In this document: piece after piece, positions 12,047 to 48,280 of the stretch
Numbering within the stretch: position 1 is the stretch's first letter
Layout: each line of letters starts with the position of its first letter
Source of the DNA: Armatimonadota bacterium
GTDB lineage: Bacteria > Armatimonadota > Zipacnadia > Zipacnadales > UBA11051
Length of the DNA stretch: 55,378 nucleotides
Reading direction: 5' to 3'
Assembly (NCBI GenBank): GCA_046483205.1
Contig: JAWODS010000209.1
Location: forward strand, 1 to 55,378
The notes under the pieces: model-generated
Told to the model about the DNA's origin: nothing
The model's input: only the letters and a program-made list of their open reading frames with translations
Database searches by the model: none
Made by a program: the position numbers and the translations under genes

Positions 12047-12177
12047 CTCTAAAGATCAGCGTTTATCTGCAGTCACGCTGAAATAATATGGCTACGGTGT
12101 ACTGTTCCTCTTCCGCTTTGCATTTCCCTTCCCGGCGCAGCATTTTGACATTCAGGACCCACAACACCCCGGGTGGC

Positions 12178-12206
12178 TTTACATTGAGCCCGCGAACTGT
12201 TATACT
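12178..12206 (+). promoter_or_regulatory. putative sigma70-type promoter for rpsO
   Basis: TTTACA (12178-12183), then 17 nt, then TATACT (12201-12206). It lies about 150 nt upstream of the rpsO ATG. Confidence 0.45.
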
Positions 12207-12354
12207 GTTTTTAGTCACGTTTCCCCGACCCGGCGACGCGCCCTTCCAGCGGTCGCTGAGTTGCAGGGCAAGGACACGACCGAAGTGTTAATACAGCATG
12301 GCGTGGCCAGCGGTCGCAGGCGGCTGCTGAACAAAAAGGAAAAGGACGATAGCA

Positions 12355-12624
12355 ATGCCACTGAGCATCGAAGACAAGCAGGAAATTATTGACAAATACG
12401 CTCGCCACGAGAATGACACTGGATCACCCGAGGTGCAGGTTGCGCTTTTGACCGGACGGATCCAGTATTTGACAACACATTTGCAGGATCATCCCAAGGA
12501 CCATCACTCCCGGCGAGGCCTGCTGAAGCTCGTTGGACAGCGGCGGCGCCTGCTGAACTATCTGCGCAATAAAGACGTCATTGGATATAGAGAATTAATT
12601 GCCGATCTCGGGTTGAGACGTTAA
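12355..12624 (+). CDS. rpsO: 30S ribosomal protein S15
   Basis: 89 aa. [28 protein letters not shown] is canonical S15. It lies upstream of pnp. Confidence 0.95.
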
Positions 12625-12865
12625 GAGACTCGGGCAGGGATTAACCGAAGACAACGGCAGACACTGTTTGTCTGGCCATTGTCATACACATGTGCGCCCA
12701 GCGCACACACAAACAACAAACCGTGCAATCAGCTGAAACGAGCCCCGGGCCGAACTTAGCCGAATCGTAACCGGCCTTCGGCCCAAAGACAGGGGATCAG
12801 ACAAAACAGGGGATGGCAGTTGTGCCCCTCCTGCTTTCTCTGGCTCCCTATCTTGACGGGCTTGG

Positions 12866-12886
12866 CTTTCGGCGGATTGCCGAAAG
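12866..12886 (+). promoter_or_regulatory. hairpin in the pnp leader abutting the ribosome-binding region
   Basis: CTTTCGGC-ggatt-GCCGAAAG forms an 8-bp stem. It ends 11 nt before the pnp ATG (12898) and includes the AAAG of the AAAGGA SD-like sequence. Confidence 0.35.
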
Positions 12887-12897
12887 GACAAGACCAC

Positions 12898-15159
12898 ATG
12901 AAACAAGAAGTATCAATGGAACTCGCCGGACGTCCGCTGAAGCTCGAGACCGGACGACTGGCGCAACAGGCTGACGCATCAGTAGTCGTGACCTATGGCG
13001 ATACCGTCATACTGGCGACTGCATGTGTCGAAGACGAAAAGTCCGACCTCCCATTCCTTCCCCTTCGAGTTGACTTCGAAGAAAAGATGTACGCCGTAGG
13101 GCGCGTACCCGGCGGTTTTTTCAAGCGCGAAGGGAAACCCTCGGAAGAGGCCACCCGCACGTGCCGGAAAATCGACCGCCCGATTCGACCTCTGCTCGAC
13201 AGCGGCATGCGCAACGAGATGCAGGTTCTCATCCTGCCGCTTTCTGTCGAGGCTGACAGCTCCGTTGACGTGGCATCAATGATTGGTGCTTCAGCAGCGA
13301 TGCACCTGTCGAGAATCCCCTTCGCCGGTCCCTTTGGAGCCGTGCGTGTGGGGCTCATCGACGGCGAGCTGCAGCTCAACCCGGACTACGACGACGTGCA
13401 GGAATGCGACATGGACCTGCTGGTCGCGGCGACCGCAGAGGGCGTCGTGCAGATTGAGCTCTCCGGTGACGATGCAGACGATGACATCGTCTATGACGCC
13501 ATCGAGATGGCCACTGAGGCCTGCCAGCCGATCATCGAACTGATCAATGAGCTTCGTGAGAAAGCCGGCAAGCCCAAGGGCGAATTCGATCTATGGCGCC
13601 CGCGTGAAGAGGCCGTCGAGTACATCACCAACAACATGACCGAGCAGATCCACGATGCACTCGGCCAGCCGGACAAGGAAGCCGTCAACAGCGCTCTTGA
13701 AACCCTGAAACAGGAAGCGCGCGAAGCGCTGACCGAGCAGGGCATCGAAGACCCCGGGGCGGATGTCCACGAGGTTTTCGAAGACATCACCAAGGAGCGC
13801 CTGCAGGACCTGGCGTTTGATGAAGGCCGCCGTATTGACGGCCGCGAACTCGACGAGGTCCGCGACGTGAGTTGTGAGGTCGGGCTTCTGCCCAGGGCTC
13901 ATGGCTCGGGTCTGTTCAACCGTGGAGAGACCCAGGTCCTCACCGTGGCGACTCTCGGCGCCTACAAAGACCAGAAGCTCGTCCGCACACTGGAGGAAGA
14001 GGAATACTCCAGGTTTATGCACCATTACAACTTCCCGCCCTTCTCCACCGGCGAAGTGAAGCCGATGCGCAGCGCGTCGCGCCGCGAGATCGGGCATGGC
14101 GGAATTGGGCTCACGGCCATCGAGCGGGTTCTTCCTCCAGAAGAGGAATTCCCGTACACCATCCGCCTGGTTTCCGAGGTGCTGGCCGCGAATGCATCAA
14201 CGTCAATGGCCGCTGTGTGCGGCTGCTCGCTGGCGCTGATGGACGCGGGCGTGCCGATTAAGAAGCCGGTTGCCGGTGTCGCGATGGGCCTTATCAGGCG
14301 CGGTAACGATTACCGCATCCTCAGCGACATGCAGGGGCTCGAAGACTTCATGGGCTACATGGACTTCAAGATCGGCGGAACCCGTGACGGTATCAACGTG
14401 ATTCAGCTCGATACCAAGACACACGGTCTGCCCCTCGATGTCATCAAGGAGGGTCTCGCACGCGGCCGTGCAGGACGCCTGCAGATCCTGGATATCATGG
14501 ACAGCGTCATCTCGGAACCGCGAGAGACACTGTCGGAGCACGCACCGCGAATGATTCCGGTGCAGATCCCGCAGGCGAAGATCGGTCTCGTAATCGGGCC
14601 GGGTGGCAAGACCATTCGGAAGATGCAGGAAGATTACGAATGCACGATCGATGTTGATGACGAAGGCCTCGCCCTCGTCTTTGGCGAGGATCCGGAGAAG
14701 GTGGAAGCGGCTGCCCAGCAGATCCGCGACATGACCCGGGACATCGAGCCGGGAGAAGTCTTCACCGGCAAGGTCGTCAACACGACCGACTTTGGCGCAT
14801 TCGTCGAAGTCATGCCGGGCCGTGACGGTCTGGTACACATCTCTGACCTCGACTGGAGCCACGTCAACAAGACGACCGACGTCCTGAACGTTGGCGACGA
14901 AGTTACGGTCAAGTGCACCAATGTTGATGACGAAGGCAAAATCCGCCTGTCCCGCAAGGCGATGCTGGAGCGGGATGGAAGCAAGAAGCCAGAGGGCGGC
15001 GACAGGTCTTCGAACAAATCGAAATCGCGCGGCAGCAAAGGCAGTTCGAACAACAGCAACAAGTCCGGCAAAAAGGGTCGCCGTCCCAAAGGTAAGTCCG
15101 GCGGTGACGGCGAAGGCGCTCCGCGAGGAAACGCCTATTTCCGCAAGAAGAGTGAGTAA
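12898..15159 (+). CDS. pnp: polyribonucleotide nucleotidyltransferase (PNPase) with a basic low-complexity C-terminal tail
   Basis: It shows two RNase PH domains, then KH (GLVIGPGGKTIRKMQE), then S1 (GEVFTGKVVNTTDFGAFVEV...GLVHISDL). ATG at 12898 (MKQEVSMELAGRPLKLETG) is preferred over the ORF-track start at 12820. Confidence 0.93.
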   Translation: MKQEVSMELAGRPLKLETGRLAQQADASVVVTYGDTVILATACVEDEKSDLPFLPLRVDFEEKMYAVGRVPGGFFKREGKPSEEATRTCRKIDRPIRPLLDSGMRNEMQVLILPLSVEADSSVDVASMIGASAAMHLSRIPFAGPFGAVRVGLIDGELQLNPDYDDVQECDMDLLVAATAEGVVQIELSGDDADDDIVYDAIEMATEACQPIIELINELREKAGKPKGEFDLWRPREEAVEYITNNMTEQIHDALGQPDKEAVNSALETLKQEAREALTEQGIEDPGADVHEVFEDITKERLQDLAFDEGRRIDGRELDEVRDVSCEVGLLPRAHGSGLFNRGETQVLTVATLGAYKDQKLVRTLEEEEYSRFMHHYNFPPFSTGEVKPMRSASRREIGHGGIGLTAIERVLPPEEEFPYTIRLVSEVLAANASTSMAAVCGCSLALMDAGVPIKKPVAGVAMGLIRRGNDYRILSDMQGLEDFMGYMDFKIGGTRDGINVIQLDTKTHGLPLDVIKEGLARGRAGRLQILDIMDSVISEPRETLSEHAPRMIPVQIPQAKIGLVIGPGGKTIRKMQEDYECTIDVDDEGLALVFGEDPEKVEAAAQQIRDMTRDIEPGEVFTGKVVNTTDFGAFVEVMPGRDGLVHISDLDWSHVNKTTDVLNVGDEVTVKCTNVDDEGKIRLSRKAMLERDGSKKPEGGDRSSNKSKSRGSKGSSNNSNKSGKKGRRPKGKSGGDGEGAPRGNAYFRKKSE

Positions 15160-15189
15160 TGCTACGGGCGCCCAATGCCGGCCAGACGG

Positions 15190-15218
15190 TTGACACGAGG
15201 CGCTCCGCACTTTATAAT
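15190..15218 (+). promoter_or_regulatory. consensus sigma70 promoter for rplU-rpmA
   Basis: TTGACA (15190-15195), then a 17-nt spacer, then TATAAT (15213-15218). Both hexamers match the consensus perfectly. It lies 92 nt upstream of the rplU ATG. Confidence 0.7.
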
Positions 15219-15234
15219 ACACTCGCTTGAAGCG

Positions 15235-15271
15235 GCAGGAGCCGACCGTTACGGTCGGCTGCTGCTTTCTT
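15235..15271 (+). terminator. intrinsic-terminator-like hairpin, either the pnp terminator and/or an rplU leader attenuator
   Basis: A 14-bp stem (one mismatch), GCAGGAGCCGACCG-tta-CGGTCGGCTGCTGC, is followed by TTTCTT. It lies between the consensus promoter and the rplU start. Confidence 0.65.
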
Positions 15272-15309
15272 ATACACGTGTGAGGTTTTTGCAGAAAGGT
15301 AAAACCGCT

Positions 15310-15621
15310 ATGTACGCTATTTTTGAAGCCGGTGGCAGACAGTTTTGGGCGGAGCCCGAACAGGTCCTCAGAATCGACAGGATGGATGCTGAGGAGGGCG
15401 ACGTGGTTGAGTTTGACAAGGTCCTCGCCCTCGACGATGAGGAGCAGAAACATATAGGTCAGCCGTACGTGGATGGCGCGACCATCAAAGCAACCGTCCT
15501 CGAACAGGGCAGAGAGAAGAAAATCACGGTATTCACGTACAAACAGAAGAAGCACACAAAGCGCAAGAAGGGTCACCGTCAGCACTTTACGGCGATCCGA
15601 GTTGATGAAATTTCAACCTGA
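15310..15621 (+). CDS. rplU: 50S ribosomal protein L21
   Basis: [12 protein letters not shown]...[15 protein letters not shown] is canonical L21. The internal ATG at 15310 of ORF 15175-15621 was used. Confidence 0.93.
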
Positions 15622-45212: not shown

Positions 45213-46163
45213 TCAGACAGGCACAGGGATCTGTTCGATAATCTGCCCGAGAACGGCACTGGCCGTCATGTCGCCCATTCGAGCCTGCGGGGCGAGTTGA
45301 ATGCGATGAGCGAGCGTCGAGGTGACGAGGCGTTTAATATCATCGGGTATAACGTAATCGCGTCCCTGCAGCGTCGCCAGCGCCTGCGAACACCGGACCA
45401 TCGCCAGCGTGCCGCGCGGACTGGCACCCAGTATAAGCTCATCCGACCGCCGCGTGAGCTCGACGATATCCATCACGTAGTCGTAGATTTCATCATCCAC
45501 GTCACATTCGGAGGCCACGGCCTGCAGGTTTTGTATCTCCTCAATCGTGGTGACATGTCCAAGTTGCTCAATCGGATGCTGCCGTAGTTGAGACTGGACG
45601 ATTTCCTTTTCCTGCTCGCGGGTGGGATAGCCGATATTGAGCTTCATCATGAACCGGTCGAGCTGTGATTCGGGGAGCGCGTAAACCCCCTCATGCTCGA
45701 TCGGATTCTCCGTGGCGATGACCAGGAAGGGATCGGGCAGAGGGTAGGTGACACCGTCAACGGTCACCTGGCGCTCCTCCATCGATTCAAGCAGCGCAGA
45801 CTGCGTGCGCGGACTGGCACGATTGATTTCGTCAGCCAGCAGTATATTGGTAAACACCGGACCCCTGCGGAAGGTGAACTCGGAGGTCTTCTGGTTGTAG
45901 ATATTCACGCCCATGACATCCGAGGGGAGGAGATCGGGGGTAAACTGCAGCCGCGAGAACTTTCCGTTCACACTCGCTGCAAGTGCCTTCGCCAGCATCG
46001 TCTTGGCGACCCCCGGAACGTCTTCGAGAAGAATGTGGCCCCCGGCAAGAAGACACACCAGGGTATCTTCAATCACCGAACGTTTGCCGACAATGACGCG
46101 CTCAACGTTTTCGATAATTGCTTCGCAGAGATCCTGCGCCTGCTGGACTGTGGGGATGCTCAT
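45213..46163 (-). CDS. MoxR-family AAA+ ATPase
   Basis: 316 aa. It has ILLEDVPGVAKT (Walker A), ILLADEINRASPRTQSALLE (Walker B) and FLVIATENP. Its stop lies 2 nt before the DUF58 start. Confidence 0.9.
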   Translation of the reverse strand: MSIPTVQQAQDLCEAIIENVERVIVGKRSVIEDTLVCLLAGGHILLEDVPGVAKTMLAKALAASVNGKFSRLQFTPDLLPSDVMGVNIYNQKTSEFTFRRGPVFTNILLADEINRASPRTQSALLESMEERQVTVDGVTYPLPDPFLVIATENPIEHEGVYALPESQLDRFMMKLNIGYPTREQEKEIVQSQLRQHPIEQLGHVTTIEEIQNLQAVASECDVDDEIYDYVMDIVELTRRSDELILGASPRGTLAMVRCSQALATLQGRDYVIPDDIKRLVTSTLAHRIQLAPQARMGDMTASAVLGQIIEQIPVPV

Positions 46164-46301
46164 GTATCAGACTCCGTGTTCGATGCTTTCAACCCCGGCT
46201 GTGTAATTGGAAGTGCGAGAAATCATTGATATCTTTCAGACGAACATTTCCCGTCGAAGAGACGCGAACCTTCTTCAGGTCGTCACCAGGTGCAGGGGGC
46301 C

Positions 46302-46336
46302 AATAAGAAACGGGGACGATGCGGGAAATCGTCCCC
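46302..46336 (-). terminator. intrinsic terminator on the minus strand, about 140 nt upstream of the moxR start
   Basis: Read on the minus strand, GGGGACGAT-ttcccgc-ATCGTCCCC forms a perfect 9-bp stem. It is followed by GTTTCTTATT. Confidence 0.6.
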
Positions 46337-46821
46337 TGAGCAGGCGTTGCACAAGGTATGACGGTATGTGGCATGTCTGGTAATCCGGGATTGAGACATG
46401 ATGGATTGTTAAATATGTGTCAAAACGGACGAAATCGGTGACCCGGGGGAACCGTTGCGAACGGATGGTGGAGTCGTCTCGTTTGGGCCCCACCGGTGGC
46501 AGTGATTTTCATCCGCCAGACGTGTTCGGGAACGGGTATCGATGCGGTTTGTGTGATGAACCGCTAATCAGGCCGTCATACACGACCTTCGCCTGCGCTA
46601 CTGCATTCAGTTGTCTGGTGCCAGCAGATAAAGCCACAGCGGCGACGTCACTCATGCCGCATCCTGTATCGCGACAAAAAAATATCGCCTGCAGCTACGT
46701 CCCGCCGCCGGCGTACGAAGGGTGAGGCGGAGAGGGCGTATCCGGGCGCGACTGGAAGGAGGGAGGGTGACCTTCCGTCTTGTGGTTTTCGCCCTCTCCG
46801 TTCTCACTATACAGACGGTAT

Positions 46822-46850
46822 ATTAAAAACATTTGTTCGGTCGATTTCAA
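46822..46850 (-). promoter_or_regulatory. putative minus-strand sigma70 promoter
   Basis: On the minus strand: TTGAAA (46850-46845), then 17 nt, then TTTAAT (46827-46822). It is divergent from the mtaD promoter. Confidence 0.45.
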
Positions 46851-46874
46851 AAAATCTGCAACAATTTCGCTCAA

Positions 46875-46903
46875 TTGCCTCACAACCCCACTCACTGTAT
46901 AAT
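46875..46903 (+). promoter_or_regulatory. near-consensus sigma70 promoter for mtaD-aroF
   Basis: TTGCCT (46875-46880), then 17 nt, then TATAAT (46898-46903). It lies about 50 nt upstream of the mtaD ATG. Confidence 0.6.
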
Positions 46904-46954
46904 ATACCCACTGCCGGATGATATTACTCACCCCTGCGCTTGTTGGAGGCCTGT

Positions 46955-48280
46955 ATGTCCACGCTTCGTGTGATCAATGCAACGATACTTCCACTTGCCG
47001 GCGGCAGCGACGTCATTACCGACGGCGAGCTGGTGGCCGAGGACGGCGAGATTGTTTACGTAGGCCCGCGGCGAGATATGCCGCAGGAGGCTGACGAGAT
47101 CATTGATGCCGCTGGTGACTGCATGCTGCCGGGATTTGTCAACGCCCACACTCACGCTGCAATGACGCTTTTGCGGGGATTTGCTGATGATCTGCCGCTG
47201 CAGACGTGGCTGCAGGATCGCATCTGGCCGATCGAGGAGAACCTTGTCGAGGATGATGTGTACTGGGGGACCATGCTCGGGGCTGTGGAGATGCTTGCTG
47301 CGGGTATCACCTGCTATTGCGACATGTATCACTACTTTCAGGCGGGCACCCGGGCGGCCATCGACAGCGGCATGAGAGTCCGGCCCTCGGGAGTGCTGCT
47401 GCAGTTTTCTGATGATCCGGAGGCCCTCATGCAGGAGGCCTTCGAATTCACCATCGCGATGAAAACAGAAAGCCCGGACCGCATTATGCCGGTTCTGGGA
47501 CCGCATGCAGCTTACTCGTGCACTGACGAGATGCTGAAGAAAGTCGCCTCTGTTGCCCGGGAACATGATCTTCCCGTGCATATTCATATCTCCGAGACCG
47601 CACAGGAAGTCTCCGATATTCTGGATGAAACGGGTATGCGCCCGGTAGAGTATCTCGATACGGTCGGCATACTTGACACCAGGCTCATCGGCGTTCACTG
47701 CGTGCATCTGAGTGACCATGAGATTGAAAGGCTCGTAGAAACTGACAGCGGTGTCGTGCATTGCCCCACCAGCAATATGAAGCTGGCATCGGGGTTTGCG
47801 CCGGTGCGCGAGTTTGTACGTGCCGATGCAAACATCGGGCTGGGAACTGATGGGGCAGCCTCCAACAACCGCCTGGACATCCAGCGGGAGGCAAGCCTGG
47901 CGGCTCTCATTCACAAGGGATACCTGGATGATTCCACGGCGCTCTCGGCCGAACAGACGCTGACTATGGCGACTGTCGGAGGGGCGCGCGCGCTGCATAT
48001 CGACCACCTCGTGGGCTCCCTGGAAGTCGGGAAGCGGGCTGATTTCATACTCCTGTCGCTTGAGGCCCCCCACAACCGCCCACTGCACAATATCTGCTCA
48101 CAAATCATCTATGCAGCCAATGCCCGGGACGTATGGTGCACGGTGGTGGATGGAGAAGTTCTTTACCGAAATGGCGAGTATCCGCAGCTTGACGCCGAAA
48201 AAATCATCGCCCACGCCGAAGAATGTGCGGAGCGGCTGATCGGTGATTACAGTCGTTCACAACAGCAGGCGAGCACGTAA
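46955..48280 (+). CDS. mtaD: 5-methylthioadenosine/S-adenosylhomocysteine deaminase-type amidohydrolase
   Basis: The motifs are PGFVNAHTHAAMTLLRG, DDLPLQTWL, HISET, VHCVH and GTDGAASNN. ATG at 46955 lies 6 nt after GGAGG. Confidence 0.8.
   Translation: MSTLRVINATILPLAGGSDVITDGELVAEDGEIVYVGPRRDMPQEADEIIDAAGDCMLPGFVNAHTHAAMTLLRGFADDLPLQTWLQDRIWPIEENLVEDDVYWGTMLGAVEMLAAGITCYCDMYHYFQAGTRAAIDSGMRVRPSGVLLQFSDDPEALMQEAFEFTIAMKTESPDRIMPVLGPHAAYSCTDEMLKKVASVAREHDLPVHIHISETAQEVSDILDETGMRPVEYLDTVGILDTRLIGVHCVHLSDHEIERLVETDSGVVHCPTSNMKLASGFAPVREFVRADANIGLGTDGAASNNRLDIQREASLAALIHKGYLDDSTALSAEQTLTMATVGGARALHIDHLVGSLEVGKRADFILLSLEAPHNRPLHNICSQIIYAANARDVWCTVVDGEVLYRNGEYPQLDAEKIIAHAEECAERLIGDYSRSQQQAST

What the first reader, a model, noticed from the sequence alone, without database searches (positions are those of the whole stretch)
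46164..46954. ~790-nt coding-free gap with divergent promoters and a minus-strand terminator: candidate ~500-nt structured RNA or attenuated leader upstream of the moxR operon
This is by far the longest non-coding stretch in an otherwise tightly packed window. All ORFs here are 102 aa or shorter, lack SD sequences and overlap each other.

Seen in the sequence: back-to-back promoters are present. They are plus TTGCCT-17-TATAAT (46875-46903, driving mtaD) and minus TTGAAA-17-TTTAAT (46850-46822). A perfect 9-bp hairpin plus U-tract on the minus strand (46336-46302) sits about 140 nt before the moxR ATG. Between them lie several strong local hairpins. These include GGAGAGGGCG...CGCCCTCTCC (about 46730-46799) enclosing GGAAGG-agggagggtga-CCTTCC, CATGTCT...AGACATG (46372-46400), GCGGTT...AACCGC (46544-46564), and the palindrome CCACCGGTGG (46490-46499).

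Inference: this is either an independent ~500-nt ncRNA (about 46815 to 46302) or a long cis-regulatory leader or riboswitch that attenuates the moxR-DUF58-transglutaminase operon. I could not match it to RNase P, tmRNA, SRP, 5S, or the TPP, B12 or fluoride riboswitch consensus by eye.
Basis: partly seen in the sequence, partly recalled or inferred. Interest (0 to 1): 0.6.

Follow-up and report, generated by a model that had tools for sequence, protein, structure and literature searches.

The report
Stress-promoter RNA hairpin beside moxR
The long gene-free gap upstream of moxR is not a 500-base structured RNA: only an ECF-sigma-type promoter, a 71-base RNA hairpin with a C-rich loop and a terminator are conserved, and the small secreted-protein gene found between hairpin and terminator in several relatives is absent here.

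Summary
The window is from an Armatimonadota MAG. The 791-nt gap (46164-46954) is real and is the longest non-coding stretch in the window.

Thirteen distinct related loci show that only three minus-strand parts are conserved:
1. An ECF-sigma-type promoter, GAAC-N17-CGTCT (46838-46813).
2. A 71-nt hairpin immediately downstream (46799-46729). Its apical loop carries an invariant, anti-Shine-Dalgarno-like ACCCUCCCUCC.
3. The intrinsic terminator (46336-46302).

The ~390 nt between hairpin and terminator are no more similar to close relatives than shuffled sequence, and they fold no better than chance (z = -1.4).

In more distant relatives the hairpin precedes a 99-139 aa secreted-protein gene. 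That gene is undetectable in the window and its two closest informative relatives. Even so, the hairpin's stems and loop motif are identical between the window and L084.

Rfam has no match. The closest analogue is the alphaproteobacterial cuckoo/CcsR RNAs, but membership fails.

My best reading is an ECF-driven, now non-coding transcript whose working part is the 5' hairpin. It probably acts by loop pairing with G-rich or Shine-Dalgarno sequences and by 5'-end stabilisation. The anatomy is well supported; the mechanism is inferred.

The parts
46875..46903 (+). Sigma-70-type promoter of mtaD (TTGCCT-17-TATAAT), divergent from the minus-strand unit.
   Evidence: Found by the scan. A similar divergent promoter, TTGTCC/TTGTCG-18-TATAAT, is present in L085 and L088.
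46813..46838 (-). ECF-sigma-type promoter: -35 GAAC (46838-46835), a 17-nt spacer, and -10 CGTCT (46817-46813). The predicted start site is about 46804.
   Evidence: This is the only match in the window. The same GAAC-N17-CGTCT, with a fixed 17-nt spacer of variable sequence, occurs in all 13 distinct related loci. Eight of those loci were retrieved through proteins, so no DNA pattern was imposed on them. The CGTC -10 and GGAAC -35 elements are ECF hallmarks (PMC3397946). The start site is inferred, not measured.
46729..46799 (-). Conserved 5' hairpin. Outer stem P1: 46799-46790 pairs with 46738-46729. Inner stem P2: GGAAGG 46776-46771 pairs with CCUUCC 46759-46754. The 11-nt apical loop is 46770-46760. 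The invariant ACCCUCCCUCC lies at 46768-46758.
   Evidence: It folds at -39 kcal/mol with z = -5.45. The same architecture appears in all relatives. The stems differ in sequence between the three classes, while the loop motif is invariant. All paired bases and the motif are identical between the window and L084, although the flanks are randomised.
46337..46728 (-). Unconserved, ORF-less interior. In class I relatives (L085, L088, L093, L098, L101, L102) the small secreted-protein gene lies between the hairpin and the terminator.
   Evidence: It is 52% identical to L084 and L082, against 49.6% for shuffles, and folds at z = -1.41. No remnant of the small-protein ORF was found by tblastn, hmmsearch or nhmmer.
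46302..46336 (-). Intrinsic terminator: GGGGACGAU-loop-AUCGUCCCC followed by GUUUCUUAUU.
   Evidence: Found and folded. It is conserved in L084 and L082/83 with a G-U change. Terminator-like hairpins with the same stem base occur in L088 and L101.
46164..46301 (-). Spacer between the terminator and moxR. It contains the moxR Shine-Dalgarno sequence GGAG (46175-46172). No recognisable promoter was found.
   Evidence: No promoter was reported on this strand. The segment is 52-58% identical to relatives. In contrast, L085, L088, L101 and L109 have TTGAC[CA]-16/18-TAT[CT]AT after the terminator-like hairpin.
45213..46163 (-). moxR, the first gene of the moxR-DUF58-transglutaminase operon.

Best explanation
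**What is there.** The gap holds a minus-strand transcription unit inherited from an ancestor shared with other Armatimonadota. An ECF-sigma-type promoter (GAAC-N17-CGTCT) would start transcription about 5 nt before a very stable 71-nt hairpin. The hairpin's apical loop displays an invariant, anti-Shine-Dalgarno-like ACCCUCCCUCC. A conserved intrinsic terminator would end the transcript about 500 nt downstream.

**What changed in this lineage.** In more distant relatives the hairpin precedes a 99-139 aa secreted-protein gene. In the window's lineage that gene is undetectable. The likely product is a non-coding RNA whose interior evolves freely.

**How it most likely works.** The hairpin is the functional part. 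Most probably it works as a riboregulator: its exposed C-rich loop would pair with G-rich or Shine-Dalgarno sequences of target mRNAs, in trans or on its own read-through transcript. Its position at the extreme 5' end would also protect the transcript from 5'-end-dependent decay.

**Shown versus inferred.** Shown here: conservation of the promoter, hairpin and terminator; non-conservation of the interior; absence of the ORF. Inferred: transcription itself, the start site, dependence on an ECF sigma factor, and the pairing mechanism.
For: **Origin and locus**
- The window is from an Armatimonadota MAG.
- The order mtaD, gap, moxR, DUF58, transglutaminase is kept in relatives.

**Promoter**
- GAAC-N17-CGTCT is present in all 13 distinct loci. 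The spacer length is fixed at 17 nt and the spacer sequence varies.
- These elements are ECF hallmarks according to PMC3397946.

**Hairpin**
- It folds at -27 to -49 kcal/mol across the relatives. In the five sequences that were shuffle-tested, z ranged from -3.7 to -5.5.
- There are three structural classes with different stem sequences but the same architecture. All carry the invariant loop ACCC(C)UCCCUCC.
- Within class I, 89% of cells are paired and 3 pairs have changed on both sides.

**Selection that does not depend on the ORF**
- Between the window and L084, every paired base and the loop motif are identical.
- The interior is at the shuffled level (52% against 49.6%), while moxR DNA is 76% identical.

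**The small ORF**
- It is present after the hairpin in L085, L088, L089, L093, L098, L101, L102, L103, L106, L108 and L109.
- It is undetectable in the window, L084 and L082.
- In L109 the hairpin is followed directly by a terminator-like stem. Then comes a strong sigma-70 promoter (11 of 12 matches) that serves the small ORF. There the hairpin RNA looks like a unit of its own.

**Analogy**
- In cuckoo/CcsR RNAs the loop motif is also the only conserved sequence. They are driven by a stress sigma factor and linked to a small ORF, with the sRNAs in its 5' or 3' UTR (PMC4615179, PMC8034643).
Against: - There is no expression data. The promoter, start site and terminator use are sequence inferences.
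- No target was identified. Loop pairing with the start region of the small ORF is no better than with shuffled sequence. Sequences complementary to the loop are not enriched in the window.
- The antisense strand folds as well as, or better than, the sense strand in several loci. G-U and A-C cells are balanced in class I. Strand assignment therefore rests on the promoter, the ORF and the terminator.
- Within class I the stems are almost invariant. This gives little covariation and could also reflect a constraint on sequence at the DNA or protein-binding level.
- The element always sits upstream of moxR and in the same orientation. That fits a cis role at least as well as a trans role.
Confidence: 0.55

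Rival explanations
1. The transcript is a long 5' leader of the moxR-DUF58-transglutaminase operon. The ECF-type promoter would drive the operon, the hairpin would stabilise or regulate the leader, and the terminator at 46336-46302 would act as an attenuator, so moxR expression depends on read-through.
For: - The unit has the same orientation as moxR and lies next to it in all 13 lineages.
- No sigma-70-type promoter was found between the terminator and moxR in the window.
- In L103 and L106 neither a terminator nor a promoter separates the small ORF from moxR, so co-transcription from the ECF-type promoter is likely there.
- The window's U-tract (UUUCUUAUU) is interrupted, which would allow some read-through.
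Against: - L085, L088, L101 and L109 have a separate TTGAC[CA]-16/18-TAT[CT]AT promoter after the terminator-like hairpin.
- No conserved sequence between the hairpin and the terminator could sense a signal or form an antiterminator.
- Rfam finds no riboswitch.
- The terminator is conserved and stronger in L084 and L082, where it is followed by U6-U7.
Confidence: 0.25
2. The whole gap is only the decaying remnant of the small-protein gene. On this view the hairpin was merely a 5' stabiliser or translation element of that mRNA and has no present function in this genome.
For: - The ORF is absent and the interior is randomised.
- The hairpin-to-terminator distance is shorter here (392 nt) than in ORF-bearing relatives. 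In L088 and L101 it is about 550-600 nt, from the hairpin ends and the terminator starts. This is what deletional decay would give.
Against: - The promoter boxes, all 38 paired bases, the 11-nt loop motif and the terminator stem are identical or compensated between the window and L084.
- The sequence around them has diverged to the level of shuffled sequence.
- A relic with no function should have decayed along with the ORF.
Confidence: 0.12
3. One reading: a ~500-nt independent structured ncRNA in which the structure extends along the whole length.
For: The whole region folds somewhat better than shuffles: z = -3.05 on the minus strand with only 20 shuffles.
Against: - The signal comes from the 5' hairpin and the terminator.
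- The 392-nt interior has z = -1.41.
- The interior shows no conservation even against relatives whose moxR DNA is 76-82% identical.
- Rfam gives no hit.
Confidence: 0.04
4. The gap encodes an unrecognised small protein. Candidates are the 48-aa minus-strand ORF at 46655-46509, which has an AGGA Shine-Dalgarno sequence, and the 102-aa plus-strand ORF at 46417-46725.
For: The 48-aa ORF lies downstream of the ECF-type promoter and has a plausible ribosome-binding site.
Against: - L084 and L082 have no ORF of similar sequence or frame at that position.
- The DNA there is not conserved.
- The 102-aa ORF has low GC3 (0.60, against 0.65-0.77 for most long genes in the window) and, by my reading, no Shine-Dalgarno sequence.
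Confidence: 0.04

Closest known systems
Cuckoo / CcsR (alpha-r14, NfeR) sRNAs of Alphaproteobacteria
   Same: - Hairpins display a C/U-rich, anti-Shine-Dalgarno-like motif in the loop.
- The loop motif is the only sequence conserved, while the stems vary.
- Transcription starts from an alternative (stress) sigma-factor promoter.
- They are physically linked to a small-protein gene, with the RNA in its 5' or 3' UTR depending on lineage (PMC4615179, PMC8034643).
   Different: - The motif is CCUCCUCCC, not ACCCUCCCUCC.
- They have 2-4 adjacent simple hairpins, not one nested hairpin.
- The promoter depends on RpoHI/HII, not an ECF-type sigma factor.
- The partner ORF is a cytoplasmic DUF1127 protein, not a secreted protein.
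- The phylum differs.
- Rfam gives no match here.
Sigma-E (ECF)-dependent sRNAs MicA, RybB and MicL of Enterobacteria
   Same: An envelope-stress ECF sigma factor drives a short non-coding RNA that ends at an intrinsic terminator.
   Different: - There is no sequence or structure similarity, and no Rfam hit.
- Those sRNAs use 5' single-stranded seeds and Hfq.
- Here the candidate seed is an apical loop, and the transcript is about 500 nt long with an unconserved body.
C-rich-loop sRNAs of Firmicutes (RNAIII hairpins, RsaE/RoxS)
   Same: C-rich apical loops are proposed to pair with ribosome-binding sites (discussed in PMC4615179).
   Different: - The motifs are different (UCCC/CCCC).
- The families and the regulation are different.
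- There is no Rfam match here.
5'-terminal stabiliser stem-loops of mRNAs (ompA-type leaders)
   Same: A stable hairpin lies within a few nucleotides of the predicted 5' end.
   Different: A stabiliser does not need an invariant 11-nt loop sequence. The start site here is only predicted.

Membership tests
Cuckoo/CcsR RNA family | Two to four adjacent hairpins of 24-50 nt | tested here: not met
   There is a single composite hairpin, P1 enclosing P2. Class II has a three-way junction.
Cuckoo/CcsR RNA family | Loop motif CCUCCUCCC | tested here: not met
   The loop carries ACCC(C)UCCCUCC in all 13 loci. It is related in composition but is not the same motif.
Cuckoo/CcsR RNA family | Match to the Rfam covariance models of the family | tested here: not met
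   There is no hit at gathering score in the whole window. There is none at E <= 10 in 46000-47100.
Cuckoo/CcsR RNA family | Stress-sigma promoter and linkage to a small ORF | tested here: inconclusive
   The situation is analogous but not the same. The promoter is ECF-type, and the small ORF encodes a secreted protein with no Pfam domain, not DUF1127.
ECF-sigma-dependent promoter | -35 (G)GAAC, a 16-17 nt spacer, and -10 CGTC | tested here: met
   GAAC-N17-CGTCT lies at 46838-46813. It is invariant in position and spacing in 13 lineages. The consensus is taken from PMC3397946.
ECF-sigma-dependent promoter | Transcription depends on a cognate ECF sigma factor | not testable with these tools
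   This needs in vitro transcription or a sigma-factor mutant. No sigma gene was looked for in the window.
Intrinsic (Rho-independent) terminator | GC-rich stem followed by a U-tract | tested here: met
   The stem has 9 bp, 6 of them G-C, and is followed by GUUUCUUAUU. It folds at -18.2 kcal/mol with z = -2.86. It is conserved in L084 and L082.
Riboswitch or attenuated leader | Conserved ligand- or signal-sensing structure between the promoter and the terminator | tested here: not met
   The interior is unconserved and folds at chance level. Rfam gives no hit.
Riboswitch or attenuated leader | Mutually exclusive terminator and antiterminator pairing | not tested
   I made no systematic search for alternative pairings with the terminator's 5' arm.
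5'-terminal stabiliser hairpin | Stem begins within about 5 nt of the transcript's 5' end | tested here: inconclusive
   P1 starts 13 nt after CGTCT. That places it about 5 nt after the predicted start site. The start site is inferred from the spacing of the -10 element in PMC3397946 and was not measured.

The most novel reading that the evidence does not exclude
The hairpin is a previously undescribed family of ECF-sigma-dependent regulatory RNA in Armatimonadota. Its loop, which resembles the 3' end of 16S rRNA, would pair with Shine-Dalgarno regions and so couple envelope stress to translation of a set of mRNAs. On this reading it began as the leader of a small secreted-protein mRNA next to the MoxR-DUF58-transglutaminase system. 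In the window's lineage it would have outlived its coding partner, which would be a natural case of an mRNA becoming a pure riboregulator.
Probability: 0.25. Interest if true: 0.6.

Novelty: new member of a known kind. Interest (0 to 1): 0.42.

Why it matters
- Armatimonadota have almost no described regulatory RNAs. This element would give a concrete candidate that is easy to test: a defined promoter type, a 71-nt hairpin and an 11-nt invariant loop.
- The ORF-bearing and ORF-less versions in related genomes form a natural comparison. They could show how an mRNA leader becomes an independent non-coding RNA.
- The element also marks the moxR-DUF58-transglutaminase locus, whose function is unknown, as lying next to a probable ECF stress-responsive promoter.
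- For genome annotation, the finding explains the one large "empty" gap in this window.

Tried and rejected
- **Rfam.** The gathering-score scan of the whole window gave no hits. The permissive scan of 46000-47100 gave only chance-level hits to a eukaryotic miRNA, an archaeal snoRNA and viral elements.
- **tRNA/tmRNA scan.** None found.
- **GTDB genome scan with MoxR.** The best hit was 57% identical and came from another phylum.
- **Exact look-up of the window's MoxR.** Not on record.
- **Remnant of the small ORF.** I searched the window, L084 and L082 gaps with tblastn, a protein HMM on stop-tolerant three-frame translations, and nhmmer with a DNA profile. Nothing was found. There is no copy elsewhere in the window.
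- **Cis sequestration.** The loop pairs with the small ORF's ribosome-binding site no better than with shuffles.
- **Target search.** Sequences complementary to the loop occur 24 times in the window against 18 expected, which is not informative.
- **Second copies.** The class I covariance model found no second copy in the window, none in 80 MoxR loci of other phyla, and did not reach classes II and III.
- **Strand choice.** Folding energy and G-U versus A-C counts were both ambiguous.
- **Early idea dropped.** I first thought CGUCU pairs with AGACG as a pseudoknot. The pairing is not kept in L088, and CGTCT behaves as a -10 promoter box.
- **Metagenome pattern scan.** Four of the ten loci it returned (L094, L096, L097, L100) were chance matches.

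Full report
**1. Observation**

- The window comes from an Armatimonadota MAG. Its MoxR matches a 55,378-bp NCBI contig at 100%.
- moxR starts at 46163 on the minus strand and mtaD at 46955 on the plus strand. This leaves 791 nt with only short, overlapping ORFs.
- A greedy gene map suggested other long gaps. Pfam showed that those hold rpsO, rplU and rpmA. This is therefore the longest non-coding stretch in the window.
- The plus-strand promoter at 46875-46903 and the minus-strand terminator at 46336-46302 are both found by the scans.
- The nested hairpin at 46729-46799 is real and very stable: -39.1 kcal/mol, z = -5.45.
It does not pass the scan and is not conserved.
- The three other hairpins or palindromes sit in a segment that folds at chance level: z = -1.41.

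**2. Known families**

- Rfam 15 gives nothing at gathering score for the whole window.
- It gives only chance hits at E <= 10 for the gap.
- There are no tRNA or tmRNA genes.

**3. Relatives**

- The GTDB scan returned only distant MoxR loci, at most 57% identical.
- The protein search found close Armatimonadota MoxR proteins at 91, 88, 81, 69 and about 65% identity. Their contigs gave the upstream DNA.
- The order DAHP synthase, mtaD, gap, moxR, DUF58, transglutaminase is kept in L085.
- The alignments show two conserved islands on the moxR strand, a block of about 110 nt and the terminator. Everything else is scrambled.
- Identity between the window and L084, by segment:
  - promoter plus hairpin: 80%
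  - terminator: 80%
  - moxR DNA: 76%
  - the 392-nt interior: 52%, against a shuffled mean of 49.6% and a maximum of 52%
  - L082 gives the same picture.

**4. The conserved block**

- A metagenome pattern scan added five further true hits, four of them new sequences. Look-ups through the small protein added four more variants. In total there are 13 distinct sequences besides the window.
- *Promoter.*
  - All of them share [G/T]GAAC, exactly 17 nt of variable sequence, and CGTCT(AA).
  - Invariant boxes, a fixed spacer length and a variable spacer sequence are how a promoter behaves.
  - GGAAC at -35 and CGTC at -10 are the hallmarks of ECF sigma factors (PMC3397946).
  - With CGTC at -13 to -10, the start site would fall near 46804. 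That is about 5 nt before the hairpin.
- *Hairpin.*
  - Folding energies are -27 to -49 kcal/mol. In the five shuffle-tested sequences z is -3.7 to -5.5.
  - An outer stem P1 encloses an inner hairpin P2. The 11-25 nt loop of P2 carries ACCC(C)UCCCUCC.
- *Three structural classes.*
  - Class I is the window's type: P1 is GGAGAGGGCG/CGCCCUCUCC and P2 is GGAAGG/CCUUCC.
  - Class II (L089, L103, L106, L108) has P1 as GGAAGGGCGGAGCACGCUG/CAGUGUGCUUCGCCCUUUUC, an extra arm, and P2 as GACACG/CGUGUC.
  - Class III (L109) has P1 as GGGACGGAACGC/GCGUUUCUCGCCCC.
  - Only the loop motif is invariant across the classes.
- *Covariation within class I.*
  - The stems barely vary: 89% of cells are paired and 3 pairs have changed on both sides.
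  - Covariation is therefore modest within the class and mostly seen between classes.
- *Other copies.* The class I covariance model finds no other copy in the window and none in 80 MoxR loci of other phyla.

**5. What lies downstream**

- In every relative except the window, L084 and L082/83, a 99-139 aa ORF follows the hairpin. It starts 39-100 nt after the hairpin in most loci, and further downstream in L109.
- The protein has a signal peptide, a conserved core (DGQPxYxAxIQLKYMDAALAAxIFGG) and a G/S/R/Y-rich tail.
- The proteins are homologous to one another. They have no Pfam domain. They form only 20 clusters, and every cluster a source names is from Armatimonadota.
- The arrangement differs between lineages:
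  - In L085, L088 and L101 the order is hairpin, ORF, terminator-like hairpin, sigma-70 promoter (TTGACC-17/18-TAT[CT]AT), moxR. The scan called the terminator in L088 and L101. In L085 I read the hairpin by eye.
  - In L103 and L106 no terminator or promoter lies between the ORF and moxR. In L106 and L108 the hairpin's 3' arm runs into U7.
  - In L109 the order is hairpin, terminator-like stem, TTGACA-16-TATCAT (11 of 12 matches), ORF, terminator, a 783-aa gene, then moxR.
- In the window, L084 and L082, no trace of the ORF is found by tblastn, a stop-tolerant protein HMM or a DNA HMM. There is no copy elsewhere in the window.
- The ORF occurs in all three other arrangements. The ORF-less state is confined to the clade whose MoxR is at least 81% identical to the window's. 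Loss in this clade is the parsimonious reading. I did not build a tree.

**6. Interpretation**

- Between the window and L084, the promoter boxes, all 38 paired bases, the loop motif and the terminator stem are unchanged or compensated. The DNA around them has diverged to the level of shuffled sequence.
- This argues that the hairpin is under selection without the ORF.
- A stable 5'-terminal hairpin with an invariant, exposed, anti-Shine-Dalgarno-like loop, driven by a stress sigma factor and linked to a small ORF, most resembles the cuckoo/CcsR RNAs (PMC4615179, PMC8034643). In those RNAs too, the loop motif is the only conserved sequence.
- Membership of that family fails on motif, hairpin number, Rfam match and taxon.
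- I therefore favour a base-pairing riboregulator that doubles as a 5' stabiliser. I hold this with modest confidence for several reasons:
  - No target was found.
  - Strand energetics are ambiguous.
  - There is no expression data.
- A role as leader of the moxR operon remains open. The window lacks a recognisable promoter between the terminator and moxR.

**7. Verdict**

- "Structured along its length" and "riboswitch" are not supported.
- The interesting object is the 71-nt hairpin with its ECF-type promoter. It is an undescribed RNA element of Armatimonadota and belongs to a known functional kind.

Noticed in passing
L085 3342-3641; L088 660-1013; L089 2411-2785; L103 3001-3375; L106 2746-3138; L109 3001-3420: A family of small secreted proteins (99-139 aa). 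Each has a signal peptide, the core DGQPxYxAxIQLKYMDAALAAxIFGG and a G/S/R/Y-rich tail. There is no Pfam match, and only 20 clusters exist in 5.8 billion proteins; every cluster a source names is from Armatimonadota. In every locus fetched, the gene lies upstream of a moxR-DUF58-transglutaminase operon.
   Followed up: partly
L106 about 2640-2665 and L108 about 2890-2915: In these class II loci the 3' arm of the hairpin runs straight into a U7 tract. The hairpin itself therefore looks like an intrinsic terminator or attenuator placed ahead of the small ORF.
   Followed up: no
window 46749-46739 and the same place in all class I loci: An invariant, unpaired G(C/A)GCCCGG sits in the 3' internal loop of class I hairpins. 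No pairing partner was found. It is absent from classes II and III.
   Followed up: no
window 12047-12354 and 12625-12819: There are non-coding stretches of 308 nt upstream of rpsO (S15, 12355-12624) and 195 nt between rpsO and pnp (12820-15159). These are the positions of the classical S15 and pnp autoregulatory leaders. Rfam reported nothing there.
   Followed up: no
window 15175-15621: The rplU (L21) ORF, as listed, has about 45 residues ahead of the Pfam L21 domain (residues 46-146). Either the true start is downstream, leaving a leader after pnp, or this L21 has an N-terminal extension.
   Followed up: no
L088 1343-1543: A 66-aa hydrophobic ORF, probably a small membrane protein, lies between the sigma-70 promoter and moxR in this lineage only.
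   Followed up: no
L109 3539-5890 and L091 627-2978: A 783-aa protein with at most faint Pfam hits (glycoside-hydrolase-like in L109, none recorded in L091) is inserted between the small secreted-protein gene and moxR in these lineages.
   Followed up: no
window 46164-46301: No recognisable promoter for moxR lies between the terminator and the start codon. Relatives have a conserved TTGAC[CA]-16/18-TAT[CT]AT at the equivalent place. How moxR is transcribed in this lineage is unexplained.
   Followed up: partly
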